DNA of 64,000 nucleotides from Psammoneis japonica (GCA_008632985.1 QPGO01000005.1:1075607-1139606); one strand, 5' to 3'. Positions 5,428 to 64,000 are shown, counted from the stretch's first letter. Notes: a model not told the origin generated them from the sequence alone. Numbers and translations: made by a program.

Positions 5428-6119
5428 AGCGATGTATTCAGTGCCTTAGAAGGGGTTGGATGTTGCTTACAATGGAGGCACGGCGGAAGTCTTCTCTGTC
5501 TCTGACCTTCATTCATCGCGCATCACGTTATTTGCTTATTTTTCATCTGCGTTTTTGTTTTGATGGCCTTCGTGGTCTCGCCGTCTTGCCGTGGTCAGTC
5601 TGATGGTGTTGTCAGCAGTTGATGGCTTGGAGAACGGATTGCAAGTTGCAAGTGTAAAGCCAGCAACACCTGTCTCCCTCTGCTCTCTAAAGTGGCCAGT
5701 TAGCAGTCACACTTGAAGCAGATTGCAACCCACAACTGTGACAATTCTTGAGCAAAGAACCAAGATGCTGCACAAGAACCCTCTCGATCATGAGTGGCCA
5801 AGAAAAGGGGGTCCCACACAGACATCAGAGTGCACGAAATGTCAAAAATGTGCAGATTTACATGATGATAATTTGTCAAAACATTGCAAAAAATTATTGC
5901 CACACAATGAAATGCCAACCTCTGGTTGCAAGTTTGGTGTGCCAACATTGCAATGACTTGTTGAGAATCAAGTGTGCTGTTTTTCACTGTGCCTGCATCA
6001 CCATTTCTGCCTCCACCTTGTTGCCATGTGCCAATGCGTGATTGCATTGCCACACAATCCTTGGTTTGCCAATTTTCGTGAACATCATTTTAAACAAGAA
6101 AAGCATTTCATCGGTTGGG

Positions 6120-7420
6120 TCAATCCCTTGTTGCGTCTGCAGTGCAATGACCGAGTGCCACGTTGGCTGTGCACACATTTTCTTGCTGCAACTCTCTTGA
6201 ACCAAGCTGACGATCATCATCGGACTTGTCTCCATCAGACTCGTCTCCTCTGTCGTCCGTTTTGCCTTTTGCGCCTTCCTCCTGCTCATCGTTGTTGCTG
6301 TTGTCGTCCCTGCTGCTCTCCACCATTGGGCTGTTCATTGCCTTCACCTTCTCCGTGTCACCGGTCGGTGCTTTCTTCTTCTTTTTTTGCTTCTCCGGAC
6401 TTCTCACACTCGCTTTTCTTGATCTCCACATGCCACTTTTCAAACTCCTTGCCCTCCTTGGAGTCTCTGTCTTTTGTCACCTCTTTGCACAAATCGTTGA
6501 ACCGATTGATTCCGTCGTCTCCCCAAGACACTCGTTGTTTCTTTGGCTTCATGCACCAAGGGGCAGGCCTTGTTTCTTCGGGCTCCATTTCCTCACCCAA
6601 TTCTTCCACCGCCTCCTCCTTGTTCCTGCATGCCCACACCTGCCAACAATTCTCCCTGACAGCGCCAAAGCTTTGTCACCGACCGCAAACAACTGTGAGA
6701 CCTGTGCGTTCCCAGTTTTGACGGCGCTGCTCCATGCCTGCTTTTGCTTGGTTTGAGGCAGCATGTGATCACAGAACCACTTGCATGCCTGCTTGTTCCT
6801 TCGTTTGCCACCGGTGACAGTGTCAGGCCAAACAGATCCCATGTCAGCACAAACGGGATGTCATTCTCTTCATTCTTGTCACAGGGCTTGACTTTTTCCT
6901 GCCTTGCTTTTTCCTCCTGACTGCCGCCTTGAGTTTCTTTTCTTTTTCCTTTCCCTCTTCCTCAGTGACAACGCCTGCACAGATGAAGCATCACCGTCAT
7001 CTTCTTGTGAGATGTGCGCAACTCTCGAATCACACACATTGGTCACTTGACTTGCGGGCCATTGCCTCTGCCCCAATGGCCGAACACACCGTGTTTCTGT
7101 GATTGTCAATTTGCCTTTTCACCGCCTTTTTTGCCCATTCCTCCCAAGTTCCTGACCAATTTGAAATGTCCATGTTGCCACTGGCAATCTGTTTCTTGAC
7201 AAACATTGAGACGCTCCCATTGCTTGCCAATTCTGGTGGACTGAGAAACTTCACCTGTGGAAAGAGATCATTTCCAGCCACCTTCTCCACTTCTGATTTC
7301 AATGCACCACGCGCTGCCTGCGCACCTGTTCTCTTCAACACTGCCTGAAGTCTCGGGCTCATTGGCTTGACAGTCTCATTTTTCTTTCTCTTCTTTGCCG
7401 GTGGTGCTGGAGACGACATC
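6120..7420 (-). pseudogene. Decayed transposon accessory ORF
   Basis: Fragments FPQVKFL, FCDHMLP...VGDKALAL and SWGDDGINRFNDLCKEVTKDR with an acidic tail. They resemble, from memory, accessory ORFs beside Plavaka/CMC-like transposases. Confidence 0.5.
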
Positions 7421-7868
7421 TTGATCTTTTCACGGCAAAAATGAGAGGAGTGGCACTGTTCGACGACAGTGCAACCGTTGTTTGGGTCGTGTTGAGACAG
7501 CCAGCCACTCTGTTTTGCTCTGTGACATTGCACAAATTGTTGTCAGCAACGTTGAAATTTGAAAACACATTTGCACATGACAACGAATGGCCCAACTTGC
7601 TTTTTGACATGGCTGTCATTGCGTTTCAAGGGAGATGACATCCTGCATTTTGACAGCAAATAAAAAGTGCAATGTTCACTGTGAATGCCAGATAAAAAAT
7701 CAAAATGCAGACACGTCACACCCACAAGAATCATCCAAATCTGGAAGACAATGTAATGTTTGCCAATTTCCCGCCATTTTTTGTGTGTTGTTCTTCTTTT
7801 CCCTTCTCATCCACAAGACAAGGACGACGAGCATGAGTCTTGATGGAGGCCCTGTCAATGTTGTCTGA

Positions 7869-9208
7869 TTGACAATGGACGGGTGCGGATGGAAGCTTCA
7901 AAAGCTTCATGAAACACTCCATCTCCCAGTGTTTCTTTGTCATTGCCGACATGCGATGAACTTTGACGCAGGCTTGGGGGAACATCTCTTGAAAGACTTT
8001 TTCAAGCTGCTGTCATCTGCCGCACAACAACGCAACCTCGACAGTTTTCTGAAGCAGGTTGTGTCGCGCATGGAGGACCAAATGAGGCTCAACGCTGCAA
8101 TTTCAGCCAACAGTTGGATTTTGCCAAATGGGAAAAAGGAAACATCAAGAGTCAGGACAGACAATCACACGCTGGGAGGAAGTGCGTTCACTCTCACCTG
8201 CAACCAAGGGATCGGCACTGTGACGTTTGAGTGGAACAGCTTGCATGCTCGTTGCCAAGTTCATCCTGTGTTGCTGAACTTCATGTCGGAAAAGTGGGAG
8301 GATTGTGTTGGTGAAGACAGTGAAAATGCACATCTGACTTGCAAGACAGAGTTTTACAATGCAAACGGGGGGGATGCGCACCGTGCGCACCCCAATTGCA
8401 AAAGCGAAGGCCCATGGAATGACTTTGCCTGTGTGACCTTTGGCGACGCGTTCCAGACGTAGGTGGGAATCCGTGTGACATTGGGCCCGTAGACTTCTAC
8501 GTGCGAGCTCCGTAGTAAAATTATACGGTAATTAAAATGTCAATGATCGCCAACAAAAAATGAGGCAATTTTGCGAACGCACAAACTCGCACATGATTGA
8601 AGTACATCATTTTTTACTTAGCCAGTTACATTCTTCAGACATTGAAGAATGTAACTGGCGCATTATTTTTTTCTTTAAATTTGTTATATAAAACGTCTGG
8701 GGCTTCGCAAAACAGCGAGTCTGGACAATTTTTTTTAAATATCACACGTAGAAATCTACGTACGAAACATGCGACGGATGATAAAAATTATTGTTGTCAC
8801 ACGTCAGTACTACGAGCTCCCACTAGGGCTGGAACGCGTCTGGCACACGAAAGGGCGATCAACAGTTTCCCTCCCGTTTGCTGTGTTTCTTCTAACAGGA
8901 AGACACAGGATCGATTTTTGCAGTGGTCCATCCAACTGCTTGTCAAGCTGACCAGAGAACTGTGAGGCAACGGCATCAGCATGCAGACTTGGTCAGTCGC
9001 TGGCAGCTTGATCACAAACGAAACAACTGGCTTTCAACACCTGAGAAGACTCAGTGCTCACCCAAGCAACGGGTTGTCCCTGTCGAAGCAATTGGGGACA
9101 ATGTTTTGGTTTGTGAAGAATGTCCAGGAGCAGTGGAAGTGCAAGAAAAGGCCCTGTTTGTTTGGGCCACACAGGACAGAAGGAAGTGTTGGTCAGATTT
9201 GTTTCTAA
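7869..9208 (+). pseudogene. C-terminal part of a Plavaka/CMC-like transposase, interrupted by a MITE
   Basis: GWKLQKLHE...NFDAGLGEHLLK...AQQR and HRAHPNC..EGPWNDFACVTF. Removing the MITE and one TSD restores the frame (VTFGTRKGDQQFPSRLLCFF). Family recalled from motifs only. Confidence 0.6.
8445..8840 (+). mobile_element. MITE copy 1 (396 bp)
   Basis: TIRs GACGCGTTCCAG..GTGGGA / TCCCAC..CTGGAACGCGTC; 4-bp TSD TGGC (8441-44, 8841-44); TA-rich interior. Confidence 0.9.
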
Positions 9209-12093
9209 AATGGGGTGCGCGAATCAATCTGTCATTCACTCACAGTGATTTCCCAACTCTTTCTTGCAAACATGATGAATTTGATCCTTTCAGAATTGGC
9301 AAAGTCATTGTGGCACACGTGAAGCAGTGCGGTGCGAGCACCTTCTGTTGCTTTTGTTCTGATGTCTTCTTCTGAAACTCCAAGACAAGCTTCTTCCTGA
9401 TCAGAAGGCTTTCCCAACCACCGACACGACAGGAAACTCTCGATGTGTCAGATGTGTGCAGTTTTAGAGCAACCACTTCCTCATGGATTCTATGCAGTGT
9501 CCACTCACACGGTCCATTCAGTCATCCTGCGCCATGAAATGTTCCCTGGCAGCCACAATCGCCTGCTGAAAGTCGGCGCTGTGGTCAGGCTGGTTGACAG
9601 CCACCAATTGTGCCTCGATTTGCAATGCCAACTGCAGGACCCTTTCTCTTGCCACGGCTTCTTCGTCCATGGCCCGGATCGCGGTCCATGTCCCTCCCGC
9701 ATTTGATCTGTGCCTGGCCTCAGATCATGCAAAGCTTGCCACTGTTGCTGCAAGGCAATGTCTTTCCTCATCAAATCGTCGAGGGCCTCGTGGAGCAACA
9801 TGATTGCATCCTTCAGGACGCACTGCGGCTGTGTTAGATGTTGCCTTTGAAGGAGTGGCACGGCAAGGCGGTGAATGGATTTGTTGATGCTGTCAATCGC
9901 AGATTGCTCCCTCTCTGCTCTTGTGGCGTCTGTGTCAGAATTTGCCCTGAGGCTTCTCAGAAGCAACATCGAGTCACAGCTGTGCAGCATGTGCAGCCTG
10001 CATTCTGATTTTTGATGTCCCGCAATGGAGATTGGGAGCCCCAGTTCTTTTGCATCAAATGCGTCACTGTGAAGAAAGCGCTGGAAACTCATTTCCGCTT
10101 CGCTGCAATTTTCCACTGCAACAACACAGTCATTGTCTGAATGGTGTGTCTCGATTGATGACCCAATGCACTGCGCACAGATGTGCTCAAATTTGCAAGT
10201 GGTTGTTGCTTGATTTGACAAAGCACTCTCAAGTGCGGTCGTTGCAGCCACACCGGCACGACGGGCTTCTGCCATTGCTTCTGCCCGATCTTGACACAGC
10301 AGCCTTTGCATCCTTTGCTCTCTGTTCCTCCAAACAACAAGCAGCGTCAGTGTGAACAAAACCACCAACTGTCTCCATCATCCGGCGACGGAAATCCTCA
10401 TCAGCGGACAGACAGAGTTCATCTGACATGGTTTTCTTCCAATGCTCTGATTGTTGTGGTCGTGGGTCGCCATTGCATTCACCAGATTGGTCGTGCGCCA
10501 GTCACATTCGTTCGTCAGTCCTCTCGCGCGTCTTCTTCAACCTGTGCATTAGAAAAATCAACGGCACTTTAATGCCACAACCTTGACACAGCATTGTTCG
10601 ACAAGGTGAGAATGTTGTGACTTAACCTCACCCGGAATCGCAAACGGAGATGGTTCAGGAAACACTTTCACAAGCTCTTCTTTTGTGAAATTGTCTGGTG
10701 GAGGAGGAGGTGACTGACAAGTCATGCTGAGGGTCGGCCACTTTGTTCGGGAACATTCAAATTGTTCCTCGAGAGTCGGCACATCTTGGAGAATCAGCGA
10801 TTCGTTCTGAGAAACATCAGAAGGTTCGCTGTCTTTGGGGTTTTTGAGACTGGGGCTTGAGGAGCAAAGGGAGGCGGCCAAAGAGGTGGCAAGAAGAACA
10901 GAAGAGTTGGAGACAAGAAGAGGAGCACAGACAATCAATCAAACAATGTGATGGATTCACGCCATTTGGATTTTTTCGTTTCCGAGCATTTTTCGTGACG
11001 GATGGAATTGCATTGCCGATTTCTTTCTTCTTGCACTGAGTGGCACAGCCTCAAAACGACACCTTGCAGCCTTGCTTTTGCCGGAATTGTCAGCGGCAGA
11101 AACCACACGATCAATTTTCACACATCTTAAAAGAGTCTCATCGACATGTGTTGCATGCATTTGTTCTCGCTCGACATCAAGCATCACCAGTCGCATGGGC
11201 TTTTCCCAAGAATTTTTGTGTTGGCGGAACAACACAGGGCATTCGTCTTTGGTCGTCTCACAGTGACCAAGAGCCAGGAAATTCTCCAAAAAGTTGAAAC
11301 AAGTGGATGTCTCATCACATTCACTGAACAGGGAGCAAAGCCAATGACCGCAATCACCATTCCTTTCAGGTGCGCACGGCAGAATCTTGTCACGCAGAAT
11401 CAAAAAACCAATCCCTTCAAAACTTCTCAGCTCAATGTGCTTGACAAGTGGCTCTCCCTTTGGGTCGCACAATCCGGGATCATGGAGAAGCTTGTGCAAC
11501 ATGGAAATCTTTGCCATCATGTTGGTTGTGATGTCTGTTGATTTTGCCTTGTCACCGATGACTTTCATGTCCTCTGCTTTGGGAGCGCGGCGATGCTCCA
11601 ACGCGTGAGGATGTTTGGCGCCTTGACTGGAATGGCTCCATCCTTTTGTGGAAAGAAAGTGCAGCAAACTCTTGCACCCAAGTTCCTTTGCAACAATGCA
11701 GTTCACAGCCATTGGCTCCACAAAAAAAAAAGAGGTCTGCCCTTCGACTTTTGCCACACATGGGCAAGCGCGATCCAATTTGGAGAGGGGTCACAAGTGG
11801 AATCGCCGGTGGAGCTGAACCTTGGATTTCACCATCTCGATTGTCACTTTGACACGGCTCCGCTCATTGCTGTCGATCACTCCAAAACTGTTGGCAAAGA
11901 GAGATTCAAATGCGGCCTCCTTGAGGTGGGAACCATTGTTGTCTTGCGACAGAGAGGCAACCGACAGGTCACGTGGCGCCATGGTTGCTGTTCCAACGCC
12001 AAAAAATCTGGTTTCTGCAGCGATTCTGCGTTTTGAGGGACATCTTCCTCTCGATGATGTTCACCCAAATGCAAGAAATGCAGCGTGGCTTTT

Positions 12094-12482
12094 GACGCGT
12101 TCCAGGTCTAGGTGGGACCTCGTACTGCTGAACTGTGGCATCGATAGTTTTTTGAATCTCGTCGTATGTCGCGCACGTAGAATTCTACGTGATTTTTTTA
12201 TATTTTGTGTCATTTTACGGTACACTTATTGAGCGATCCGTCCAAAAACTTTTGACATTTTTTGTTACAGCGCGATTCTATAATGTCTTAAGAATCGCGT
12301 AGGGCAGGTGCATTTGCAAAAACGTCGAGTGGTAAGAGGCATAATTGTACCACAAACTTGGCCGTTTATTTGATGTTGAAGATAAATATATCCATTAATT
12401 AAATTCTCGTACTACGGACCTCGCACGTAGAATTCTACGGGCCCAATGTCACACGGAGTCCCACCTGGGGCTGGAACGCGTC
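12094..12482 (-). mobile_element. MITE copy 2 (389 bp), same family, opposite orientation
   Basis: Same TIRs; TSD TTTT; shares CCGTGTGACATTGGGCCCGTAGA with copy 1; TA-rich. Confidence 0.9.
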
Positions 12483-15400
12483 TTTTTTGGAACGGTGATG
12501 AGGAAACATCCAACGCGGCAGCGGCACATTTGAAATTCTTGCAAGAGAGCGGACAAGACATGTGGAATGAAGAGGACGATGCGGACGAACAGGCCAATTG
12601 GAGCACAGTTGTTGATTGAACAATTGGTGCACACTTCACATGATGAAATTTCATTGCATGCAATTGCAATGTTTGGCTTGTCGTCAAAGATCGTCAGTTG
12701 TTGTGAAAAAGGCAGAGCACAAAAATTAAAAGGCATCTGTGTTCAAACATGAAGAACAGCAGGAGATTGACAATTGACTGAATGACAAAAACCATTGTGT
12801 GCAGACAAATAAATTTTATAATGTGGCAACATAATTTTGTCATGCACGCAGACATTGCGATGTCATGCACTCTGATGGAGGTGCAGGAACAACACAACAA
12901 CTCTTTGAGTGCATTTGCCAGCAGTGGCTGGGGTGATGTCAACTGTCAGAGTTGCCACATTTGATGCAACAGTGTGCACCTGCCACAACAGAATGTTTTG
13001 CCAATGCAAGAACAGAGCACAAAAGAGCTCAGGACGTGTTCCAGCCGCGCGCGAACCAAATCGTGCACAAAAACGACATTTGCGCGATTTTTGCGCAGTC
13101 AGAACAGATGTGTTGGATGGATGGCCAGCCAGCACAAGAACAGATGCTGGTTGTTGTTGTTCACTTTCAAAAGAACAAGTGAAAATCAATGTTTGTGTCA
13201 CTTGAAGTGTGCAAATGCTTCCTGCGTCCAATGCCAGCTTCTTCTTTTCTTGTTTCTGAGTCTTGAAAAGAACGAATGGATGGCTGCAGCTCTTGGGTGT
13301 GGAATCTCGGCATCATGGCAGTCATGACTTTGCACTCTGTTTCTTTTTGAATCTTGAGCCAACAAAGTGAAGCAAGAGCAAAATTTTTTTGTGAAGCACA
13401 AGATCAGCTGTGGGTTGTTGCAGTGTGGGTCAAGTGACAAAAGAGGTGTGTGACAAAACAGCGCACTGCACCAAGAAAGTTGCCCCACTCTTGGGACATG
13501 AACAAAATGATGCTTGCATCAGAGTCACTTGGAGAAGCAGTGGAAAGTGCTGTTTGAACCATCTTCAAATCACTTTTGGCTCTTGATTGCCTCAAAGCAA
13601 TGGCCAACGATCGACAAACAGCACAAGAAAAAAATTGAAGATTGCTTGATCTTGTCAGCCGCTGTGGGGAAAGACATGGAAATGATGGGCTGGAGCTGTG
13701 GCTGACCATCATCAAAAAAGAGAACCTGGGACAAGGCCTTGGCATTTTCCTGGCCAGAGTTGTTTGCAGACATGTCCTCAACAGTGCTGTCCCAGGGAAG
13801 AGAGCATGCCTGTCACCTTTTGAAATGCCAGGCATTGTTGCCACCAGTTGGACCAGCTTGTGTTGCTGGTTTGATTGACGACAGCTGGACTCTGTGAAGC
13901 CAATGAAAGAGCCACCAAAATTTGACAGTGACAGAAGTTGCAACTTCAATGCCATTGTCTTGTTGGCTGCCTTTGAATTTGAGTGCTGCCCCGGTGCTGC
14001 TCTGCTCAGCACTGGCTTGCACAACAACTTTGTGAACCACCCGCACCCAACTCGCAAGGACTTCTTGGAGCATCATGCGTTGCATGCAAGAGAAGCAAGC
14101 ACTCCATTTTCTTTTGAGTGAGTGGTGTCTGTTGTCACTCTCACCCAGCAACAAAGAAGCAAAGCTGCTGAGGATGCCATGTGTGCTGCACTCACTGTTT
14201 GGACAGGAGCTCACTTGAAAAGAGTGTGCCAGAGGAGCTCCAGCCAATGTTTGTGCTTGAGCCACTCAAGTCATCCACATCCTTGACAGCTCATTTGCTC
14301 TCTTGCCAAGCAGAGTCTTTGTTGTTTCTTCTGTCTGAAGTGTTGCTCTCATCCAGCCAAACCTCAATGATGAAAATTTTCTTTCAACAAGCCCCTCAAG
14401 CTGATGCAGCCTTTTGTCATTTTGGTCCAAAAACAGAGAAACCTCAGCCATCTTGATCATGACAACCTGCCTGTTGCTTTCCATGAGCTCTGCTTTGTGC
14501 TCTCTTTTTCTCATTGCTTTGTGGTCCTTCAGCTGTTCATTGCCAAAGAAAAAAAGGAAATGGAGGACATTGTGTCAGACAGAGACAGTGCTTTGTGAGC
14601 CCTGCCGAAATTCCCTGGTGTGTGAAGCTTCTAGACTGTTGACTTGTTTGCCACCTGCAGAGTTGGTCCTCGTGTCCTGCTCAGCATCATCTTTGCATGA
14701 CATCTCAGTGTCAAACTTTGAAAAATCCAGCTCACTCTTCTCAATTTCAAGAGAGGTGAGCACTCCACTTTCTCTGAAACAAATCACCTCACAATGTGTG
14801 CTTTGACAGGCTTGCCAACTCTCTTGCCAAGCCAAGCAGCTGCAATGAAGCAGAGGGAGGAAGGGCTTTTTTCAAGCCCTGTTCTACAAACAACAAATGC
14901 AAGAACAACAGCTTTGCAGCTTGTCAACCCTGCTGCCTTTCCCACAGCAGCCATGAAGGCAGGGTGCTGCTGCAACTGCATCATTCTGCATGCTTTGCCT
15001 GTCTCCAACAATGCTCCACAGTCACAACTTTCTCTCAAAACTCAAAACTCAACAAAGCTTGTGTGCTCACACAAACAGCAATGGAAAACCTTCCCAGTGT
15101 GCAGCTTTTTGAGTTTCTTCCCTTGATGTTGCAAACAAGTGCATTTTGAATTGCACAATGCAAGCACACGGGAAATGTGGTTGTGTTGAGAGTGTTGAAA
15201 TTGAGTGCTGACATCTGAAGTGGAAAAAACACAAAGGTTGCCAAAGTGGTTTGAACAGCTGGAGCCAAAGGAAGGGTGAGCCATCCATGGGTGTTGAAGC
15301 ACTTGCATTTGTGGCAACCTTGACTGCTGCTTTCTTTTTTCAACCACATCTTTGTTGAGTTGAGCACTGCCAAACATGTGGAAGGATGCTTTGACGAGCT

Positions 15401-16779
15401 TTGTGTGTGTGTGGAGTGATCTGTGTGCAGAGATTTTGCATGACCCAAAACAGCAAAGGTGTCCATGTCAGGGGCAGAAATGTTTTGCAGAACATCCATC
15501 AGTTTTTGAAAAAGTCAAACAAAGCAGGACCACAGCAGCTGTCGATGAAAACAAAGTGTGTCAAAAGAAAAATGTTGAGATTCATTTTGTGCTGTGCACC
15601 TTGTGCACTGCAAAGATTTGGTCTGCATCAACACACAATTTTTAAAGCAGCAGCAAGTTTCAAAATTCACAATTTGAGCAATGGGCAATGGAGTCTTGCT
15701 GTTGACTTTTGTGTGCAGTTGACAAACCTTTGAGTCAAATTTTTGGCATCGCTGCTTTGTGTTTTGTTGGCCCATGCTTTTCTCTGACAAGTGCATCATG
15801 ACAAAAGGTGTCTGTGATGTGGTTGGTGGTTGAGGATCAATTGTCTTGTTGCTCAAGTTTTTGCCTTTTTGTGTGACTGTTGCTGGATGCCTCTTTAAGC
15901 CTCACCTCATTTTCCCATGACTCGTTGTTTTCTCACTGCAAAAGTGATGCAGCAGCAAGGAACATGATGGTGAGGGAAATGTGAAGGTGGCGTTGAGAAG
16001 ATTGCAGCACTTCCAATGAGCAATGGTTGTTCTTGCACTCCAAAATGCAGGCAAGGAAGATTTTGGTTGTTGCCAGTGGGATTCTCACTTTTTTGATGTC
16101 CCAACACCCCATGCAGTCTTCACCTCCAAGTGCTCTGAACAAGAAGTTTGTGTTTTCTTTTTTGCACTGTCCCAGCCAAGCTGTCCAATGGGACACAAGA
16201 CTTGTGGAACCATGATTTGGTTGTGTGGTGTGTGCACCTGCTGGTGTGCTCACTTGATTGAGTTCTTCAAGGAGCTCTCAGAGATCATCACATCAACAGC
16301 ATCATGCACCCACCTGTTTTGCTCTCATTGTTTGTGGCTCTTTTTGAGTTGGTGTGGATGCTTTGGGAATGTTGTCACCCTGTTGGCAATTTCAATCTGC
16401 TTCAGAGCCAACGCTTTCACATCAAGGTGTTTGTTCTTAAGAAAAAGCAATCGTGCAAACAGTTTGTGCTCATCTTCACCCTGGCAGGAATGGCATTGGA
16501 CCTCCCTGCTGCTCATGCAAGAACTTGATGTCACTCAGGAACTCAATCTTCACATCGTCACTAATTTTTGCCGCTGGGGCTCTCAAAGCAATGTCAAGCT
16601 CTGCCGAATGGATTGCCGCACCTCATCAAAACCCTCATCGTGTAACATGTGCCATCCCAATATCCCGGGTTCATTTAACGAATGCACACACTACTGAAAA
16701 TCTACTTCTCATGAGTGTTGGCGTTCGAATCGTTCATCTACTGTTACAAAAGTTCGCGCTCGTTCATCCTCTCCCGGAT

Positions 16780-51486: not shown

Positions 51487-51819
51487 GGTCCTGCTTCTGC
51501 AGAGAAAATGAGGTGCGGTGCAGAGAGTTTGCAGCATGCAGAGTCTCTACTAGTATGTTTTCTACGTATTTCTACACAAATCTTTGCGCGAAGCGACGAT
51601 CGGAGCTTCAGGCGCGATATTTGAGCTTCGCGCACGAAAACGCGCAATTGTTTCCGAATTCGTAGTAAATCCACAATGGCGGCACGCAATCGAGGCCCTG
51701 TGCTGCATGCAAGAGGTTTAAGAATGATGCTGACAAACAATTCCACCAATCATGACAATCACAACAGTCGTTTACGGCGTTACTGTCGAGAGAATGCAAT
51801 GAGTTCGATTAGTCTTGCG

Positions 51820-55223: not shown

Positions 55224-58200
55224 AGGAGGACCTTCGCTCTTGGAAAGCGTTGTTTGTCCGTCCTGCATGTTCTTTGTTGAATAACACCATCGAGAAAACA
55301 TCATACAAAAATTAGCGGCTTCACCACGGAACGAGAAAAAATGCATTTTTAGTAGCAAACTTCGGTTGAGAGTGAGGAGCAACCATGGTTTTCCTGCGTG
55401 TTTAGCATCACGGCTCATTGCATGCGATTGGAGCGAACCAATCTGATTCGACAGAGAGGCGATTACCTCGAGCCAACGTTTTATATCCATGATGAACAGG
55501 CTTTGAATAGACCCTATAAGGGTGTTCTTTTATCATTCTTTGTAGATAATTCCGTAAGGGAGTTCTTTTTCCATTCTTTGTGATTAATTCCGTAATGAAG
55601 TGTAAGCGTCTCATCCGCATCAGGATAGGATGTAATGCATTGTCAAGGCCAGAAAGAAGTGAACGAGGAACACAATTGTCGTTCCCGCGTTAGTGAATTA
55701 AGGATGTATCTACGTGCTGCGGTCTAATTTAAAATAGCTCGCATTTCCCGCACTTCACCGTGACATTTTGACCTGCCTCGGAACACCCCCGAACACTTGT
55801 GTTTCCGTCAAACCCTCGTGAGGGCTGTCAGACGGCCAACAAGAGCTGCACATTTAGCACTTCAAATTCCACTTGTCGGCCTGTGCCCTGTTGTCAGGTC
55901 GAAAAAACCGCCAATTTTTGCTAAAATCGGATGGCATGCTGGTGTCACCTTTCAGACAACAGGTTGCCACCCATCTCCAAGCCAGCTGGGCTGCCAATTG
56001 TGGCACTGCAACACTTGCGACCATTCTCAGCATCACTTTCACAATGGCTGCGAGACAACAAACTCAATGAGGCACAACGTGTTGTGGAAGAGAGTGGAGC
56101 CCACTTGGGTTTGCACCCAAAGTGTGCGAGCGTCCATTGTGCCAGTCATGAGGGGCCCAGAGTTGCCAACAAAGCAACTCAAGAGGTCAGGGGAGAAAAT
56201 GGCAAAGAGAAGGAGAGAGCGGCAAGGCAACAAAACATTGCACTTCTTGTGCCATTGGCAATGAGTGGATCAACAATCGCGCTCCTTTGGGCAAGAGTGA
56301 GGAGCCCTGGAAGTCAACCCCACAGGAGCCAGCAGTTGATTTGGAGAGCAGCTTGTGTTGTCAGACAAAAAGGCTGCAGAGCAAAGGGTGGGTGCACACA
56401 GATGACTTTGGCAAGACAAAATGCACAAACACTGCTTTGAGCTGGCAGAGAGCCGTGCTTGGGGACAGAGAAAAGCCAGCATCAAAGCAAAGGAAAAGCA
56501 AAGCACCAGCCTGCTGAAGCTGACAAACCCCATGGAGAGGAGAAGAAGCTGGGCATGCTCTGGTCTTCTCAGCCTTTTTGGTGCAGGGTGTTTTGCTCTT
56601 TGCCTGGAGAATGCTGAGAAAAGATTGTCAAAGTGCGCACACATTCTTTCTCACCCATCTTGCAAACAGATGGCGCGTTTGAGCTGCCTTCACAAAGTGA
56701 CCCCTTTTGCAATGATCATGATGCTGCAGTGTGCAAGGCAACAAAATGACAGGAAAAACATGCTTCAATGTGCTGCTGCTTGTGGGGTGTTGCAGATGCA
56801 AGCAAGTGGCCAAATGCAGTGGCGCACATTCATTGTGGGACCCCACAAATGTGTGCGAAGGGACCCGCAACCCAGAGCTGTGTGGATTTTTGCGTGCAGG
56901 CATGGCATTGTGAACAAAAGCAATTGCTGTGCTTCTGGATGATGATCTTCTTTTGTCTTCCATGGGTGGGAACAATCCCAGCCATGTTCGTCAGTGAAGA
57001 TGCCATCGCCAGTCTTGCCAAAAGTTGACCTGCCTTCAAAAACAATTGTGCAAGTGCGTGCAACACAATGCTGCATGAAATGAGGGATGCTGGAGCAGCA
57101 GGCCTGGTGTGTTGACATCATGTGTGCACTTTGCATGACAACACTGTGAAAACCACATCATCACATGCAACATCCTCACTCTCCAAACTCAAGCCAAAGA
57201 AGGTTTTTGTGGGCAGCCATGATGAAAATGCAACAATTCTCCCTGGGGGCAACAAGTGTGCATGTTCTCAATGGCGCAACACAGGGCTGTCAAATGTTCT
57301 TTCCTTTGTCGACACATGCAACATTTTTGGTTGAAAACAGCCCAAAACAACATCTTGTCATTGGCCTGCAAACCTGAAAGACCCCTGTGCATGACCCCGC
57401 ATGTCACAGCTCAAAGTTGTGTCTGGGCTGAAGCTCCAGTTGCCCAAAACTCTGTGCTTTTCAGTGGCTCTGCACTTCAGCAGACTTGGGCTGAGGCAAA
57501 GCTGTCAACTTGTCTTGAAGAGCAGCACAGCAAAACTTGAATGAGAGCACCACTTTTGATGCCTCCATCATGAGACCGATGCCGGAACATGTGACATTGG
57601 GTGAGCTCTCAAGGGCAAGTTTTGCAACATTTTCTTTTGTTGTGCTCACAAGTTGATTGTTTTTAACATCTTTGTTGTTGGGGTGAAGTTTTCTTGCCCA
57701 TTGCTTCAGAAAGAATGAGAGTCAGAAGAACAGCAAAGAACAGATGAAAATTTTGTTGCTCGGGTCAAATGTCCAAGGAGCCACTCCCTGTGCCAGTGAT
57801 TGGTGCACCCACTTTCTAAGATGTGAGCCACCTCAAGAGCTGTGGATGACCAGCTCAGATGTGTGCTCCATCAACAACAGATCTCCAAGAGGTGCCACAC
57901 AACAACTTGGGAACTTTCTCTTTGCTCTGCGGCATCAGCCTGGCAAGCCTGGTCTGTCATGAACTCCAGCCCAGCAGCTTCCAGCATCTCAAGTGCTTGC
58001 CAAGCTTTGCCGTTCATTCCAGCCACCCGTGGTTGTCACATTCAAGGACTCACAGCAAGATCATGCTGTCAATTTGATGACAGTGCACAACGAAACTTCT
58101 CACAGTCTGGGTTAATTTGGTTGTCAAGCTGAGCAACTGGGGAGCCACTTCCAGGCAGATCTGTGCTTGTTTCTGCTCACATGAAACCACCCACCAGAAA

Positions 58201-59153
58201 AGCTGGGAACACCTGCTCTCCCTTTCTGTGCACACACAAGTGAGCAAATGTGGTTGCATCCAATGCACTTCCACTTGGACCTTGGAAATGGCGCTGCCAG
58301 TTGACTCACCTGTGGCAGAAATTTTGATGGACAGCACAGAAACGTGTGTGAAAGTGCAATGGCTGACAGCAACACCCTTCCCACAGGGTCAACAAAGACA
58401 TTCCAGGTGTGTGATTGCCACTCAAAAAAATTGACATTGATGGTCGAGCACCACCACACTTGGCACTTTTTGTGTGGCAACACCCAACCACAATGGCTGG
58501 GCGGCTCAATCTGTGCCACCCCTTTTGTTGAGCTGGCCAATCGGTGCATTTGCTCTGGCATGTGCTTCAGTCAGAGAGAGCTTTGAAACCTCTGCCACCC
58601 ACAGACTCTGGCGAATGGAGGCAACAACAGCAAAAATGCATGTGAGAAGCTGTCATGTGAAAAAAGAGGCATTTCAAAGAAAAAATTGAGCAGGAATCCA
58701 TGCCATGTGCTCCCTCATCAGAGTGCGCATTGCAGTGATCAACACTCCCATTTTCACAGTGATTTTCATTCCTTTTGTAGATGATGTTTTTGCAGTTTCA
58801 AACCTTGTCAGTTGTGCAGCTGGCAACAAATCTTTGTCTGTCAAAGTCACTTGTTTTTGCTGTGGAGTCCTCTTTTTAACCACAAGAAATCAACATTGAT
58901 TTTAAAGCAGCTCCCCTTTTCCCTGTCTTTGTGCATGCATTCCTTTGCTGCAGAAGCTGGCAATCAATGTCATCTGATCACCACACGTCACATGTTGATT
59001 TTTGCATTTGACGTGATGTGTGCAATGAATTTGTGCCGCTTTCCCAGCCCAACAATGAGCTGTTGCTTTTGCTTTTTCACATGGGTTGTCAATGAACACT
59101 GAGTCAATGCAATGGTGTCAGCTGCATTGCATTTTCAACTGGCCTGTGCTGGA

Positions 59154-59700
59154 GACACGTTCCAGGTCTGGGTGGGACCTCATGCTGCTGAACTGTGACA
59201 TCGACAGTTTTTTGAATCGCGTCGCATGTTGCGCACGTGCATTTCTACGTGATGTTGGCAAAATTTTGTGTGACTACAGTGCAATTGTCAGGCGATCCAT
59301 TCAACAACTTGGAATCTTTCGAAAATGACCCGTGATGCAAAAAGCACAAAACAACTGTGGGCGCCTGTGGAATCTGCGCGTTTTTGTGCTGAAACTGTCA
59401 TGTTCACAAAATTTGTGCAAAAACAGACTTGACTGTCATCGGGTCAGGTGCACTTTTGCAAATGCATTGAAGAAAAATGCACCTGATCAGAAAACAGTCA
59501 AGTCCATTTTTCGCAAAGTTAAAATTCACTGAGGACAGACAGACAGACTTTTCCATGATTTTCTTGGTGCTGTTCCACACACTTCTGCGCAAATGACTCT
59601 AAAGCGCAAAAGATTGCTGTTGAATGTTTTTTCCTTCTACGCCATTCTTGAGTGTCTTAAGAATGGGGCAATGCTCCTGAATTTCAACCGCCACACCTTT
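59154..59700 (-). mobile_element. One end of a longer member of the MITE family
   Basis: GACACGTTCCAGGTCTGGGTGGGACCTC... aligns with 12094-12240; family hairpin at 59642-59666; no partner end seen. Confidence 0.8.
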
Positions 59701-61770
59701 TGAAAACAGTCAAAATTGGCGGTGTGCAAGCTCCTCATTGAATGACCCACCCTTGATTGCACTTGTGACAATTTTGGCAATCAAATGTTCAGCTCAAACA
59801 GCACCTGCAAACATGAATGATGAAATCATCTTTGCAGCTGATGCAGACACATGCATGAAGATTGGCACCTGCAACAGTTTTGGCTTCAGGTGTGAACTGC
59901 TGTTCCAAGCCCATTTCCTGACTTGGCACCAACTTTGATCTCCAATCCACTTCTTCCACAGCATCTTCTTCCAAATGTGCAATGACAAAATTGCAGCACC
60001 TCCCATTGTGAGAGCGGTCAGTCATGCAATCAAATGTGTTTGTTGCCTCACAAACCCAGCCACAATGGATCCTTTCTAAGCTCCATTTGTGCTCATGTCT
60101 GCACCATCATCTCTCCTTCTTGTCTTCACAACCACACTTGTGATCCTTGCCAAGGTTCATTCCCTTGATGATCTCCAACATCCAACCATTGAACATCCTT
60201 TGTGTCAATTTGGAGAACTCCAATTTGATGCACTGCCATGTCCTTGAGTGTGTGTCATGTGTGATTTTGGGCTTGAATGATTCTGCAAGCTTCCTTGCAT
60301 TGAATGCGACACCTTTCTCATCCATCACCAGGCAGCAAACACCTCCTGAGCCATTGCCTGATGCTGGGCCTCTTTGCCCACCTTCAGGGTGGGCAAGCCA
60401 ATGGTGGACGTCTCTCTCAATGCATCAACATCTTGCTTGTCCGTGGCCAAATGCAGCTTGTCCCCCAGGATCCAGCAGCTGAAAACTGGCATCTCATTCT
60501 TGCAACCACAGTGCATCCAACTGTTGACACAAAACTGCTCTCCTTGTCTGTCCTGGTGTGTTGCCACTGAGCTCCAATGCTGCTTGGATCTGTGTGCATT
60601 CCTGGCTCATTTGATGATCACACCCAAATGCTCATCATCATTGTCCATCGCTGTTGAAGGACTTCTTTAAATTGCCATCAGCAACTGCTCAACAGCACAG
60701 CATTGATCATGTCTTCTTTTGAGTCAGGTGGTGTCTTGCATGGAAGACCAAATGAGGGAACGAGGGTGCACCGTGCCATCTCTGCCAGTCCATGGATTGC
60801 ACTCAAAAGGCAGATGACAGCATTCACGTTGTGGGTCTGCCCCTCCCCCCCCTGTCAATTTGGCGTTCTCCTCTTGAAGGAAAAGAACTTTGTTGGTTGC
60901 ATTGGATCAAATCTCTGCAGCTCATTGACAAATTTCAGGGCTGCATCCCTTGTTGTCTCGGAAGGGTTTCCCAAGAAGTTTCCCACTCTGTCACTCCCAA
61001 ATGCAGTTCTTCCTGATTGGATGGTTTTCCCAGCCAATCCCCCCTGTCCTGCTCTCCAATTTTGAGGGGGATGCCTGGCAAATTGTCACTTTGTCTTGCA
61101 CCATCTCCTGGGTTGCACCACGCACCAGTGCATGTTCTTCCATGTGCTCCAATTTGCGCACAACTTGGGCAAGGGACCACAAGTTGTGCAGGTGCATTGC
61201 TGAAAAGATCCTTGATCACTGTGCACCTGGCCTCATCTCTTCTCTGCTGCATGGATGACATGGACTTGATGCCTCAGTCTGAACAAAGTTCTTCCAAAGA
61301 GAGCTCACCTGCATTGACAGGCCTCATCATGGCCAGCCAAAGGACCTTGGCACCACCACCATCCCTTTCAGATTGGCAAATGGGAGGGAACATGCTGTCT
61401 TTGACCAGACGAACAAATTTGTGAAACAACCACAGCCAGTTTGCAAACCAACCATGACTCGCCACAGTGTTGCATTCATGCACTCGTCGGTGTCAAAGTT
61501 GTCCAGGCATGCAAGCATTGGACAAAGGACTGGATCCTCTGAAGACATGCTTGACTCAACATCATGATCAGAATTTGGTGAAGCGGATGAATTGACTGCA
61601 TGAGCGAGGCGCTCATGACTGGTTGAATTTCCTCCATGATCACAATCTGGGCCACATTGGGTGGGTCACCACCCCCATTCTGGGAGAATTTAGCATGCAT
61701 TGTGTTTGCAAAAATGGTCGACTCTGCAATGTTGGATGCTTTGTCACTTGCCAACGCGCTTTCAGTCAAC

Positions 61771-62072
61771 AAAAGGACATTGTTGTCAGCCAGCTGTCTG
61801 GCAACAACGGATTCAGACTCCTCTGATGACAAGTGCAATTTGTTGTTGGCGGCAACCATGCTGTCCAGCAATGAAAGCATTCATTGTCAGATGGCTGTTC
61901 AGCAACAACGCACTCAGATTCCTCTGACAATGAGCGCAATTTGTTGTCAGCAGTGACTGCAGCACCCAGCAACAAAAGCATGTTGTTGTCAGACGGCTGT
62001 CTGGCAAGAACATGCACTCAGATTCCTCTGACAATGAGTGCAAATTTGTTGTCGGTGGTGACTCAATTGAGC
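61771..62072. repeat. Three degenerate ~101-bp tandem units
   Basis: TTGTCAG..GCTGT..GCAA..A...TCAGA.TCCTCTGA...AGTGCAA.TTGTTGT recurs at ~101-bp spacing. Confidence 0.75.
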
Positions 62073-64000
62073 ACGGAGTCAGACTTCTCCAAAAATGAGT
62101 CCTTGGCTTTCTGCATGGACAAATTGTCTTTGCATCCAGAGGCATTGTCCAACAATGATTGCGGGTCCGTGATGGTTTCCTTGCACAGGTCTGGAGCATT
62201 GACCACACACACAGAGAATGTAAACAGGTCATGTCCTGTGTGTGGTTTGCAGAACACATGATCAAAAATGTCAGTGCAATGATTGAACTTGGACTCACAC
62301 AGCTGGTGTTCCGTTCCATTCCATCCCAGGTCTTCTGTCCCGGTCTCTGAAGTCATGTGTTCATGCACAAGCAGGCGTTCTTCTGGCTTGATGTGCTTCA
62401 ATTGTCCAGCTGCACTGGAGTTGAAGATGGGGTGCACCATGTCATTCAGACGGGGATGATCCTTGACAACTGCACATGCCAGCACCGCCAAACCTTGCAG
62501 GACCAACATCAGATGAATTGCGCCAAAATCAGCTCCGCATTGTGACCAAACTTCACAGGCATCCTTGTGCCATTGTTCCATTGAGTGGGCACAAAAGCTT
62601 TCATTGTTCACATTGTTGTCAATCCACAGCAGGAATGCATGGATCTTGTTGACCATGAGATCTGCTGGAGAATTGGCTGTGTCAATGCAGCTGGGGTTCA
62701 AAAGCACCTCGGAGAACTTCTCATGCATCAAATTGGTGGGGCTGATCTGCCCTGCCTGGGATCACCAAACAACACATTGAACTCATTCTGCAGACATGTG
62801 CAGAAGAGCACAAACAAGTCACTGCCTGCACAACAGAGGTTTGGGAAATGCTTGTCCCCAACACAGCAGAAGCGATGACATCCAGCAGGATGACTGACAA
62901 GCATCACCAGGTGAATCACCCATTTTGGGTCAGGGCCAGACCTGCACATGATGTTCTTGAATCAGCAGAGAGCTGTTGCTGGAGCTGTGACAGATGAAAG
63001 TCTCTTGCCAAGAATGACAGGATTTTCAAATGGCCATGTGCACTGTGAGGATTCCTGTGCTTCGCCACCACCTGTCGTGATGTTGCCCCAAGGCCTGTTG
63101 TCATCCAGCAAGAAATTCTTGGTGCATCAGCAGTGAGGGAAACCTCTGGGTGTGAGTGACCATCATGTTGCAAGTCAAAGTCTTGCAGTTGGAAATCAAG
63201 CTGAGCACAATTGCAGTGCATCTGTGCAAGCATCGGCTTCATTTTGCACTTGTTGTCACAGTGCTGACCTGTGGCATTCTTGCCATTGCACATTGCCTTG
63301 AAGGACCACATCTCGCCAAATGCATCCACGACAAAGAAACAACCAGCGGATGTTTTCCCACATTGCAGCCAGGTGCAATTGTCACTGTCACAATGACCAT
63401 CGCAGAACTGACCTCGGGATGTGCACAAACCCTGCATGTTGCAGTCCTCCTGTTGGCAGCAGAGACAACCAATTGCGTCACCTGGCACTTTTGAGCACTC
63501 CTGGCAATGAATTGACTGGTTGAAGGGCAGTGGGTTTTTCAGTTTTTTTGCTCAATCTCATTTTTGCATGGATGAATGGAGCCAAGAATCAAGTCTGCAA
63601 CCATGACCTTTGTTTTGGACAATTTGTGTTGGTCGAAATTTTCATCAGACTTGAAAACATCCAGGGAAAAAGTTGACCCTGTGCTTGTCTCCAGACCAGC
63701 CTCAACGGCCACCAACTGTTGCGCTCAAGGTTGGACTCTCCCCTCAACGTGATGAAAAGCAGGAGAGTGGGAACACATGCACAAAGACAGCCAAAGTGAG
63801 CTTTGCACAGTGCATTTGCCTGTCTAGCAACAGACAGTTCATCCAAATGGTGATCAAGGTGAGGAGGGCATTCAACACAGGAGCCCATCTTGGGATTGCC
63901 CAAGGTTGTTTTGCAGGCAAACTTGTGCCAGTTTTGCCTCAAATTGTCTGCAAGGTAAAAGTCGCTGGCAGAGTGGGGCAGCACACGCTCCACATCTGTG

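What the first reader, a model, noticed from the sequence alone, without database searches (positions are those of the whole stretch)
5650..64000. Repeat-targeted TpA>TpG/CpA hypermutation, an apparent 'reverse RIP' system
Seen: all four TE blocks almost lack TA while the interleaved genes have ordinary TA content. TE proteins show Cys or His where Tyr is expected (TAY>TGY or CAY), and loss of TAA/TAG leaves spurious ORFs in all six frames. Retroelement, Tc1, MITE and Plavaka-like sequences are all affected, on both strands. Known: fungal RIP creates TpA from CpA, and 5mCpG decay removes CG; neither removes TA. Inference: a process converts A:T to G:C at TpA in repeat DNA. Candidates are a DNA adenine deaminase, a modified adenine, or Pol eta-like error-prone repair (WA>WG) aimed at silenced chromatin. 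I do not know of a description in diatoms but could not search. No causal gene is evident in this window.
Basis: partly seen in the sequence, partly recalled or inferred. Interest (0 to 1): 0.95.

Follow-up and report, generated by a model that had tools for sequence, protein, structure and literature searches.

The report
TpA-erasing hypermutation of mobile DNA
Nearly half of this diatom-like genome window is mobile-element DNA in which almost every TA dinucleotide has been turned into TG or CA, the same odd mutation process first reported in 2026 in an unrelated alga.

Summary
A two-state model finds nine TA-poor segments totalling 29,332 of 64,000 bp. They hold 78 TA against 1,856 expected from base composition, while genes between them have TA O/E 0.54-0.77. 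TG and CA rise to 1.4-1.85, and CG falls to 0.15-0.72.

Direction was tested with outgroups:
- A DDE_3 (Tc1-like) transposase has Cys/His (TGY/CAY) at 8 of 12 consensus-Tyr columns.
- A second, unnamed protein has Cys/His at 10 of 13 Tyr positions of its homologue.
- One MITE copy has CA/TG at 9 of 10 sites where two TA-rich copies share TA.
- All 24 metagenomic relatives of the transposase have ordinary TA content.

The families are therefore not intrinsically TA-free. The "retroelement" and "Plavaka-like" labels found no support. Triggering by repetition is not shown.

A 2026 preprint describes the same TpA>TpG/CpA hypermutation in Bigelowiella natans. This window is from a diatom-like ochrophyte, so it is a new member of a just-described kind. 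The enzyme is unknown. DNA adenine deamination is the best guess.

The parts
5896..8459 (.). TA-poor segment
   Evidence: 5 TA against 164.8 expected. TA O/E 0.03, CG 0.60, TG 1.63, CA 1.61.
8445..8840 (+). MITE copy with terminal inverted repeats, not hypermutated
   Evidence: Terminal inverted repeats. 29 TA in the aligned part. Sits in a TA-normal island at 8460-8893.
8894..12108 (.). TA-poor segment
   Evidence: 8 TA against 205.1 expected. TA O/E 0.04.
10960..11790 (-). ORF of an unnamed protein family that has lost all Tyr
   Evidence: One homologue, P0278, at 54% identity and E 2e-70. Its 13 aligned Tyr are H x6 (CAY), C x4 (TGY), F x2 and I x1 in the window. The window ORF has 0 Tyr. 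P0278 has no Pfam hit.
12094..12482 (-). Second MITE copy, not hypermutated
   Evidence: 30-nt terminal inverted repeats. 29 TA. Lies in the TA-normal island 12109-12832.
12833..16561 (.). TA-poor and CG-poor segment
   Evidence: 5 TA against 272.3 expected. TA O/E 0.02, CG 0.18. Contains a 1800-bp TA-free run.
28572..30603 (.). TA-poor and CG-poor segment between the ALG3 and DnaJ genes
   Evidence: 4 TA against 130.1 expected. CG O/E 0.15. Flanking genes identified.
38549..40571 (.). TA-poor segment holding inverted-repeat arm B (38906-40519) and a 42-bp tandem array (39738-40405)
   Evidence: 5 TA against 105.5 expected. The arms are 96.3% identical over 1614 bp. Tandem array.
40572..41990 (.). 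Spacer between the arms, partly depleted
   Evidence: TA O/E 0.29. Highest summed contig depth, up to 82,136.
41991..47465 (.). TA-poor segment holding arm A (42476-44089) and a 42-bp array (42590-43254)
   Evidence: 20 TA against 316.3 expected. One site of the tandem unit is TA x7, TG x14, CA x8 and CG x1 across 30 units.
46822..47241 (+). Hypermutated copy of the same MITE family
   Evidence: 1 TA against 29 in the two other copies. At 10 sites where both TA-rich copies have TA, this copy has CA x6, TG x3 and TC x1.
47755..51665 (+). Tc1-like (DDE_3) DNA transposon with about 116-bp terminal inverted repeats, partly hypermutated. The transposase ORF is 47936-49045.
   Evidence: Inverted repeats. 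DDE_3 hit at 24.6 bits. 7 homologues at 42-48% identity. 8 of 12 consensus-Tyr columns are C/H. TA O/E is 0.09 and 0.12 in 47990-49036 and 49297-50278. Contigs with 0 differences at depth about 34, against about 58 for genes.
55736..64000 (.). Largest TA-poor, CG-poor segment; it runs off the window
   Evidence: 20 TA against 554.2 expected. CG O/E 0.26. A 1,796-bp contig at depth 53.6 covers 55901-57694 with 6 differences. None of the ORFs tested here hit Pfam above noise.

Best explanation
These blocks are mobile-element DNA: a Tc1-like transposon, MITEs, an unnamed TE-like gene and unclassified repeats. They have undergone locally targeted, DNA-level hypermutation in which TpA becomes TpG or CpA. 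That is an A:T>G:C transition at either base pair of the palindromic TpA.

The process acts on a whole chromosomal block, including elements nested in it at the time. It stops within a few hundred bases of neighbouring genes. It chooses the strand independently at each site and runs almost to completion. It destroys coding capacity (Tyr becomes Cys or His) and removes TAA and TAG stops. Ordinary decay of methylated CpG accompanies it more slowly.

It is the same phenomenon reported in 2026 for viral and TE-like inserts of Bigelowiella natans, here in a diatom-like ochrophyte.

Inferred, not shown: the chemistry is enzymatic deamination of adenine in 5'-TA (A>I, read as G), with A followed by A (5'-TAA) a poor substrate. 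Also inferred: targeting follows a silent-chromatin or small-RNA mark rather than repetition as such.

My confidence that the directional, targeted DNA-level TpA hypermutation is real is about 0.9. My confidence in adenine deamination as its chemistry is about 0.45. The figure given is for the whole statement.
For: Size and locality. 78 TA against 1856 expected in 29,332 bp, with genes in between at TA O/E 0.54-0.77. TA counts return to the gene baseline (10.5 +/- 4.2 per 250 bp) within 250-750 bp at most edges, more slowly (up to about 1.25 kb) at two.

Direction.
- 8 of 12 consensus-Tyr columns of the DDE_3 transposase are TGY/CAY.
- 10 of 13 Tyr of homologue P0278 are His/Cys in ORF 10960-11790.
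- MITE copy 46822-47241 has CA/TG at 9 of 10 sites where two other copies share TA.
- One site of the 42-bp unit is TA/TG/CA = 7/14/8. At five units arm A keeps TA where arm B has CA x3 or TG x2.

Not intrinsic to the families.
- All 24 of 24 metagenomic loci of the transposase family have TA O/E 0.60-0.95 in the coding part.
- Among 141 family proteins with at least 5 Tyr columns covered, 102 have under 10% C/H there. The window copy is the extreme at 8 of 10.

Heritable sequence rather than a read-out artefact.
- The two inverted arms share almost all TG/CA states. They differ at 51 events, of which 8 are TA<>TG/CA and 8 are TG<>CA doubles.
- k-mer contigs of run X1 reproduce the TA-poor stretches with 0-6 differences. 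One contig bridges from gene flank into a block, 38001-38906.

DNA-level action. A MITE and a DNA transposon are affected.

Context. TTAA survives at 0.41 of its gene-region frequency and CTAA/TTAG at 0.21. All other contexts are at or below 0.09. The split of TG against CA gain by context points away from A followed by A.

Precedent. In B. natans mutation-accumulation lines, 230 of 231 de novo mutations in two inserts were A>G or T>C, all of these at TpA. TpA-poor CDS there were enriched for DDE and RT domains.
Against: - No enzyme or targeting factor is identified. None of the window's ORFs scanned against Pfam shows a deaminase domain.
- TpA is palindromic, so A>G on one strand cannot be told from T>C on the other. 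Adenine as the attacked base is an assumption.
- TG<>CA double differences and part of the TG/CA excess can also come from CpG, which is depleted too.
- The context rule rests on 78 residual TA. It matched only 7 of 9 predictable polarised MITE sites.
- Only one 64-kb window was available. No genome is held.
- Run X1 may be the assembly's own source, so it is not independent.
- Most blocks have no recognisable TE protein.
Confidence: 0.55

Rival explanations
1. Same targeted TpA hypermutation, but the attacked base is thymine. For example, T in TpA is oxidised or hypermodified (5hmU or base-J-like chemistry by a TET/JBP-type enzyme), then mispairs or is repaired wrongly, giving T>C.
For: TpA is palindromic, so T>C and A>G give identical patterns. 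The context data can be read equally as 'T preceded by T is a poor substrate'.
Against: No evidence here for such a modification. From recall, thymine oxidation products are not known to be strongly mutagenic towards C. The only published proposal for this signature is adenine deamination.
Confidence: 0.15
2. A true 'reverse RIP'. The trigger is sequence duplication (homology sensing), as in fungal RIP, with different chemistry.
For: The 38.7-47.3k blocks belong to families with thousands of related contigs. 9,272 contigs of X1 were laid, with summed depth up to 82,136 against about 58 over genes. Several unrelated families are affected.
Against: Two copies of the MITE family (8445-8840, 12094-12482) keep 29 TA each, although a MITE-bearing bin has summed depth 65,132. 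The TA-free stretch 55901-57694 lies on one contig at depth 53.6, like single-copy genes (the tool warns that depth is not copy number). The hypermutable NCLDV region of B. natans is single-copy according to its authors.
Confidence: 0.1
3. Error-prone repair by a Pol eta-like polymerase (WA>WG) recruited to silent chromatin.
Against: AA, the other half of WA, is not depleted: 0.0745 in LOW against 0.0762 in normal segments. AA O/E is 1.2-1.5 in the blocks. Removal of TA is almost complete.
Confidence: 0.05
4. RNA-level A-to-I editing of TE transcripts (ADAR-like, with its 5'-U preference), copied back into DNA by reverse transcription.
For: ADAR prefers U before the edited A, as cited in the preprint's discussion.
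Against: A MITE and a DDE transposon, which do not pass through RNA, are affected. Depletion is continuous over blocks of nested, unrelated elements with sharp borders at genes. No reverse transcriptase was found in any block. From recall, ADARs are known only from animals.
Confidence: 0.03
5. No mutation process at all. Either the elements are intrinsically TA-free or selected against TA, or the pattern is a sequencing or assembly artefact, for instance miscalls at modified bases.
For: None found. Run X1 may be the assembly's own data.
Against: - Relatives of the transposase are TA-normal in 24 of 24 loci.
- Two MITE copies are TA-rich.
- The changes destroy conserved Tyr.
- TG/CA states are shared between duplicated arms, as inherited sequence would be.
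- Proteins from other data sets (P0005, P0158, P0007) show the same Tyr loss.
Confidence: 0.03

Closest known systems
TpA>TpG/CpA hypermutation of integrated viral and TE-like DNA in Bigelowiella natans (Mettrop et al., bioRxiv 10.64898/2026.01.13.699255; abstract, Results and Discussion read; supplements closed)
   Same: A:T>G:C transitions confined to TpA, on both strands. Sharply local, with the rest of the genome normal. TpA-poor, CpA+TpG-rich clusters. TpA-poor CDS enriched for DDE endonuclease and reverse transcriptase. Many affected genes cannot be annotated.
   Different: - The host is a diatom-like ochrophyte, not a chlorarachniophyte.
- Here the state is near saturation over 29 kb of 64 kb, with TA frequency 0.27%. 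The B. natans NCLDV region still has 3.3% TpA.
- The targets recognised here are a DNA transposon, MITEs and repeats, not viruses. P0278 has no relative in viral contigs.
- CpG decay co-occurs here.
- No de novo rate was measured here.
- The TTAA/TAA resistance seen here is not mentioned in the parts of the preprint I read.
Fungal repeat-induced point mutation (RIP)
   Same: Saturating transition hypermutation confined to mobile or repeated DNA next to intact genes, which inactivates TE genes.
   Different: Opposite direction and different base. RIP makes TpA from CpA. Here TpA/ApT = 0.05 and (CpA+TpG)/(ApC+GpT) = 1.85, computed. RIP gives high and low values respectively (thresholds recalled). 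A duplication trigger is not shown here.
Deamination decay of methylated CpG in silenced TEs
   Same: CG>TG/CA in the same blocks, with CG O/E 0.15-0.72. 22 of 51 differences between the inverted arms are of this type.
   Different: It cannot remove TA. TA loss is faster: in 5896-8459, TA O/E is 0.03 while CG O/E is still 0.60.
Deaminase editing of retroelements in animals (APOBEC on cDNA, ADAR on dsRNA) and TadA/ADAT2 tRNA adenosine deaminases
   Same: Base deamination used against, or acting on, mobile and viral nucleic acids. From recall, TadA/ADAT2 edit A34, which always follows U33, giving a natural 5'-UA context.
   Different: APOBEC changes C, not A. ADAR needs dsRNA and an RNA-to-DNA step. 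No deaminase has been tied to this signature in any organism.

Membership tests
TpA>TpG/CpA hypermutation of foreign DNA (B. natans type) | Changes are almost only A:T>G:C transitions at TpA, giving TpG or CpA | tested here: met
   Outgroup-polarised. 9 of 10 shared-TA MITE sites. 8 of 12 and 10 of 13 Tyr codons are now TGY/CAY. Tandem-unit site is TA7/TG14/CA8.
TpA>TpG/CpA hypermutation of foreign DNA (B. natans type) | Confined to discrete regions while the rest of the genome has normal composition | tested here: met
   Nine LOW segments against genes at TA O/E 0.54-0.77. Most edges are sharp, within 250-750 bp. Only this window could be examined.
TpA>TpG/CpA hypermutation of foreign DNA (B. 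natans type) | Targets are of foreign or mobile origin | tested here: inconclusive
   A DDE_3 transposon and MITEs are shown. High-copy repeats at 38.7-47.3k. Most other block sequence has no recognisable protein.
TpA>TpG/CpA hypermutation of foreign DNA (B. natans type) | Directly measured de novo rate about 1000-fold above background | not testable with these tools
   Needs mutation-accumulation or pedigree sequencing. The only indirect hint is that TA loss outruns CpG loss.
Fungal RIP | C>T at CpA (or another CpN) that creates TpA; high TpA/ApT index | tested here: not met
   TpA/ApT = 0.0027/0.0522 = 0.05. TA is destroyed, not made.
Fungal RIP | Triggered by duplication of the sequence | tested here: inconclusive
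   TA-rich MITE copies persist although the family gives thousands of related contigs. A TA-free stretch sits at single-copy-like depth. Timing of the insertions is unknown.
5mCpG deamination decay | Loss of CG with gain of TG/CA and no effect on TA | tested here: not met
   CG loss is present, but TA is depleted 14-fold, which this process cannot cause. It is a co-occurring process, not the explanation.
Pol eta-type WA>WG mutagenesis | Both TA and AA are hit | tested here: not met
   AA is 0.0745 in LOW against 0.0762 in normal segments.
ADAR-type RNA hyperediting fixed by retrotransposition | Requires an RNA intermediate, so it is limited to retroelements | tested here: not met
   A DNA transposon and a MITE are affected. 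No RT domain in any block.
Tc1/mariner-IS630 (DDE_3) transposon, element 47755-51665 | DDE_3 transposase between terminal inverted repeats, with a TA target duplication | tested here: inconclusive
   DDE_3 scores 24.6 bits against a cut-off of 28.6, but homologues carry PF13358 at E down to 6e-100. Inverted repeats are about 116 bp at 88% identity. Both ends are preceded by CTA, compatible with a TA duplication but not proof.

The most novel reading that the evidence does not exclude
A dedicated nuclear DNA base-editing defence erases TpA in silenced mobile and viral DNA. It would be a natural adenine base editor with 5'-TA(not A) specificity, guided by chromatin marks or small RNAs. It would be shared by at least two distant SAR lineages, a diatom-like ochrophyte here and the chlorarachniophyte B. 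natans. It would therefore be old or repeatedly evolved, and its gene could be found by comparing genomes with and without the signature.
Probability: 0.3. Interest if true: 0.9.

Novelty: new member of a known kind. Interest (0 to 1): 0.72.

Why it matters
Targeted A:T>G:C hypermutation of DNA is almost unknown in biology. The single report is a 2026 preprint on one chlorarachniophyte, and it has no enzyme.

Finding the same signature at saturation in a diatom-like stramenopile has several consequences:
- The process is not a quirk of one species.
- It acts on ordinary transposons as well as viral inserts.
- It leaves an easily scored genomic footprint: TA near zero, and no TAA/TAG or Tyr codons.

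This makes the causal gene searchable by phylogenetic profiling. It gives a second system for experiments. It is also practical for annotation, because such TEs escape protein-domain searches and produce spurious ORFs in all frames. A natural DNA adenine editor would also interest base-editing technology.

Tried and rejected
- Whole-genome test: no genome is held for this window, so sliding-window and TE-family analyses across the genome could not be run.
- Earlier notes of this scan: nothing on this genome or on these words.
- TE classification of the blocks by Pfam: 164 ORFs of 90 aa or more, 73 ORFs of 55-89 aa at E up to 0.1, and 13 long ORFs re-tested. Only DDE_3 came up; the other hits at E 0.018-0.09 are noise.
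- Protein Atlas: ORF 9508-10377(-) gave no usable hit. The ALG3 query gave no useful taxon.
- P0278 has no Pfam family and no relative in viral contigs. A viral origin of that block is neither shown nor excluded.
- Rfam: 0 matches in the window.
- Strand-coherent tracts, as expected from a processive single-strand deaminase: TG/CA order shows no autocorrelation (|z| at most 2.0 in 7 LOW segments). At saturation this neither supports nor excludes processivity.
- Context rule on polarised MITE sites: 7 of 9 predictable sites fit, too few to count.
- Expression: no RNA holder is listed for the stretch searched. Run X2 behaves like cDNA, since one contig skips the GT..AG intron 52122-52273. It has almost no contigs over the TA-poor blocks.
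- The 40 differences shown out of 663 in the read-laying table were a mixture of CpG-type and TA-type changes and are not decisive alone.
- Run X3 (marine sediment, 0.05 of words) laid only 16 short, mostly under-90% contigs. No conclusion drawn.
- The SPLASH preprint, which came up for 'diatom' plus 'hypermutation', concerns immunoglobulin hypermutation and is irrelevant.


Full report
**1. The observation**

In 1-kb windows TA O/E drops to 0.00-0.10 over four stretches: about 5.9-16.5k, 28.5-30.6k, 38.5-50.3k and 55.7-64k. It stays at 0.45-0.83 over the genes. The window has 1,428 TA against 4,218 expected. TA-free runs reach 1,800 bp (12832-14632), 1,742 bp, 1,604 bp and 1,570 bp.

A two-state HMM on TA positions gives nine LOW segments totalling 29,332 bp. 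They hold 78 TA against 1,856.2 expected from their base composition. TA makes up 0.27% of dinucleotides there, against 3.87% in the remaining 34,668 bp.

In LOW segments TG and CA O/E are 1.38-1.85 and CG O/E is 0.15-0.72. Relative to the normal segments, the summed loss of TA+CG is 0.066 of all dinucleotides and the summed gain of TG+CA is 0.058. The YpR total is almost unchanged (0.2375 against 0.2457). This is what transitions at YpR steps predict. AA is unchanged at 0.0745 against 0.0762.

TAA+TAG trinucleotides fall from 16.6 to 1.96 per kb. ORFs of 90 aa or more rise from 2.68 to 4.91 per kb. TA counts per 250 bp reach the gene baseline (10.5 +/- 4.2) within 250-750 bp at most of the seven edges examined; the edges at 30603 and 50279 recover more slowly, over up to about 1.25 kb.

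**2. What the blocks are**

Host genes between the blocks have ordinary TA content. They are RNA polymerase I subunit 2, two protein kinases, ALG3, a DnaJ protein, a sulfotransferase-like protein, an HSF-type factor, an M12B-like peptidase and a VWA protein.

Pfam scans of the blocks covered 164 ORFs of 90 aa or more (one of which, at the left edge, is the RPA2 exon) and 73 shorter ORFs. Only one TE ORF matched: DDE_3 at 47936-49045, 24.6 bits, below the 28.6 cut-off. The "retroelement" and "Plavaka-like" labels therefore have no support from these tools.

Three things are confirmed:
- A Tc1-like element at 47755-51665, with inverted repeats of about 116 bp.
- A MITE family of about 390 bp with terminal inverted repeats. 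Copies lie at 8445-8840, 12094-12482 and 46822-47241, with a fragment near 59154-59310.
- A pair of 1,614-bp inverted arms at 96.3% identity, each holding a 42-bp tandem array.

I laid k-mer contigs of run X1 on 38001-58000 at 80% likeness or more. This placed 9,272 contigs, with summed depth up to 82,136 over 38.7-47.3k against about 58 over the genes. These are families with very many relatives, although the tool warns that depth is not copy number.

By contrast, 55901-57694 lies on one contig at depth 53.6. The Tc1-like element lies on two contigs with 0 differences at depth about 34.

**3. Direction of change**

*The transposase.* It has 7 homologues at 42-48% identity. At the 12 columns where the less-altered homologues agree on Tyr, the window has Cys x6 (TGT/TGC), His x2 (CAT/CAC), Phe x1 and Tyr x3.

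All 24 of 24 metagenomic loci encoding relatives have TA O/E 0.60-0.95 in the coding part.

A profile search of 1.84 billion representatives returned 150 more relatives. Among the 141 family proteins with at least 5 of 10 Tyr columns covered, 102 have under 10% Cys/His at those columns. The window copy is the extreme at 8 of 10. It is followed by P0005 (6 of 10), P0158 (3 of 7) and P0007 (2 of 6), which come from other data sets.

P0007 differs from the 85%-identical locus L001 at 36 positions. Eight of these are single TA>TG/CA changes of the L001 codon context. The figures for P0001 and P0002 are 2 of 61 and 1 of 68.

*The second protein.* ORF 10960-11790(-) has one homologue, P0278, at 54% identity. 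The 13 Tyr of P0278 in the alignment are His x6, Cys x4, Phe x2 and Ile x1 in the window. All ten His and Cys codons are CAY or TGY. The window ORF has no Tyr at all.

*The MITE.* Copies 8445-8840 and 12094-12482 have 29 TA each in the aligned part, and copy 46822-47241 has 1. At the 10 sites where both TA-rich copies have TA, the third has CA x6, TG x3 and TC x1.

*The tandem array.* One site of the 42-bp unit is TA x7, TG x14, CA x8 and CG x1 over 30 units. In five units arm A keeps TA where the matching unit of arm B has CA (x3) or TG (x2).

*The inverted arms.* 58 of 59 mismatched bases are transitions. They group into 51 events: 22 CpG-type, 8 TA<>TG/CA, 8 TG<>CA doubles (whose ancestor could be TA or CG) and 13 others.

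- The families are not intrinsically TA-free.
- The changes are directional.
- Read-derived contigs show the same sequence. One caveat is that X1 may be the assembly's own data.

**4. How it works**

Shown:
- The process acts on DNA in place, because a MITE and a DDE transposon are affected.
- It acts by block. A MITE copy embedded in a block is mutated, while two copies in TA-normal islands between TA-poor segments are not.
- The mutated states are inherited sequence, because the duplicated arms share nearly all of them.
- The strand is chosen independently at each site. TG against CA order shows no autocorrelation, with |z| at most 2.0 in 7 segments.

Context also matters. The 78 surviving TA are dominated by TTAA (20) and CTAA/TTAG (20). 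Relative to gene-region frequencies, survival by context is as follows:

| Context | Survival |
|---|---|
| TTAA | 0.41 |
| CTAA/TTAG | 0.21 |
| All other contexts | 0.09 or less |
| ATAT, ATAC/GTAT | 0 |

In asymmetric contexts the gain goes mainly to the strand whose A is not followed by A. The TG share of the gain is 0.22-0.32 for N-TA-A and 0.68-0.78 for T-TA-N. The polarised MITE sites fit this in 7 of 9 predictable cases, which is too few to count.

TA loss outruns CpG loss. Segment 5896-8459 has TA O/E 0.03 with CG O/E still 0.60. If both decay exponentially from gene-like starting values, the TpA rate is roughly six times the CpG rate. This is an inference.

Inferred:
- The chemistry is adenine deamination in 5'-TA, as the B. 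natans authors propose with an ADAT2-like candidate. From recall, TadA/ADAT2 naturally edit A34 after the invariant U33.
- Targeting follows silent chromatin or small RNAs.

A thymine-directed chemistry cannot be excluded, because TpA is palindromic. Pol eta-type WA>WG repair is disfavoured because AA is untouched. RNA editing followed by reverse transcription fails for DNA elements. A duplication trigger is doubtful, given the TA-rich MITE copies, the TA-free stretch at single-copy-like depth and the single-copy target in B. natans. Recent MITE insertion would also explain the TA-rich copies.

**5. Comparison with what is known**

The preprint bioRxiv 10.64898/2026.01.13.699255 reports the following for B. 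natans. I read the abstract, all of the Results and the Discussion. Its supplements are closed.
- 230 of 231 de novo mutations in an NCLDV insert and a virophage insert are A>G or T>C.
- All of these lie at TpA.
- The rates are about 1000-fold above background.
- There are 324 TpA-poor CDS, enriched for DDE endonuclease and reverse transcriptase.
- There are 124 TpA-poor, CpA+TpG-rich clusters.

The window is not from that organism. No ALG3 match exceeds 58% identity. The best named ALG3 hits are diatoms at 50-58% identity, followed by brown algae at 48-49%. In a tree, the window's ALG3 falls in the diatom clade with 97/97 support against brown algae. Only those two groups were sampled, so another close ochrophyte lineage is not excluded. 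Long uninterrupted ORFs of 1,887, 610 and 596 aa also differ from the intron-rich genes of B. natans, which I cite from recall.

Six full-text searches found no report of this signature in diatoms or other stramenopiles. Subscription-only papers are not covered by those searches.

By the classical RIP indices the blocks are the reverse of RIP. TpA/ApT is 0.05 and (CpA+TpG)/(ApC+GpT) is 1.85, both computed.

**6. Verdict**

The core inference of directional TpA>TpG/CpA hypermutation of mobile DNA is supported. The framing as "repeat-targeted" and two of the TE labels are not.

This is a new member of a kind described only months ago: a second, distant host lineage, at saturation, acting on transposons. 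It adds a sequence-context detail (TAA and TTAA resistance) that can be tested against the published mutation list. The enzyme and the targeting signal remain unknown.

Noticed in passing
window 47755-51665: The Tc1-like element lies on two X1 contigs with 0 differences, at word depth about 34 against about 58 for the flanking genes. No second allele was laid at 80% likeness or more. It may be present on one haplotype only (an insertion polymorphism), yet it has already lost most TA in its transposase part.
   Followed up: partly
window 8445-8840, 12094-12482, 46822-47241, 59154-59310: A MITE family of about 390 bp with 12-30-nt terminal inverted repeats. The bin holding one copy has summed X1 depth 65,132. 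Two copies are TA-rich and sit in TA-normal islands between TA-poor segments, as if inserted after the surrounding DNA was mutated.
   Followed up: partly
window 38906-40519 and 42476-44089: Inverted 1,614-bp arms at 96.3% identity, each with about 16 units of a 42-bp tandem repeat, around a 1.9-kb spacer that has the highest summed contig depth in the stretch laid. The nature of this element is unknown.
   Followed up: partly
window 18335-23998 (-): An uninterrupted 1,887-aa ORF with ordinary TA content, no Pfam domain and an internal 336-bp tandem duplication at 20639-21331 (81% matches).
   Followed up: no
window 52122-52273: A 152-nt GT..AG intron in the M12B-like peptidase gene is skipped by a contig of run X2. 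That run is listed as 'DNA?' but therefore behaves like cDNA.
   Followed up: yes
proteins P0005, P0158, P0007 (other data sets): Three relatives of the transposase from other public data sets also have Cys/His at Tyr columns and almost no Tyr (0.3%, 0.4% and 2.4%). The same process has probably acted in other genomes or other copies. Their DNA and hosts could not be examined.
   Followed up: partly
LOW segments, window-wide: AT dinucleotides are also lower in TA-poor blocks (0.0522 against 0.0668) and GC is higher (0.0723 against 0.0624). This is probably a by-product of ATA>ACA, TAT>TGT and GTAC>GTGC/GCAC changes, but I did not model it.
   Followed up: no
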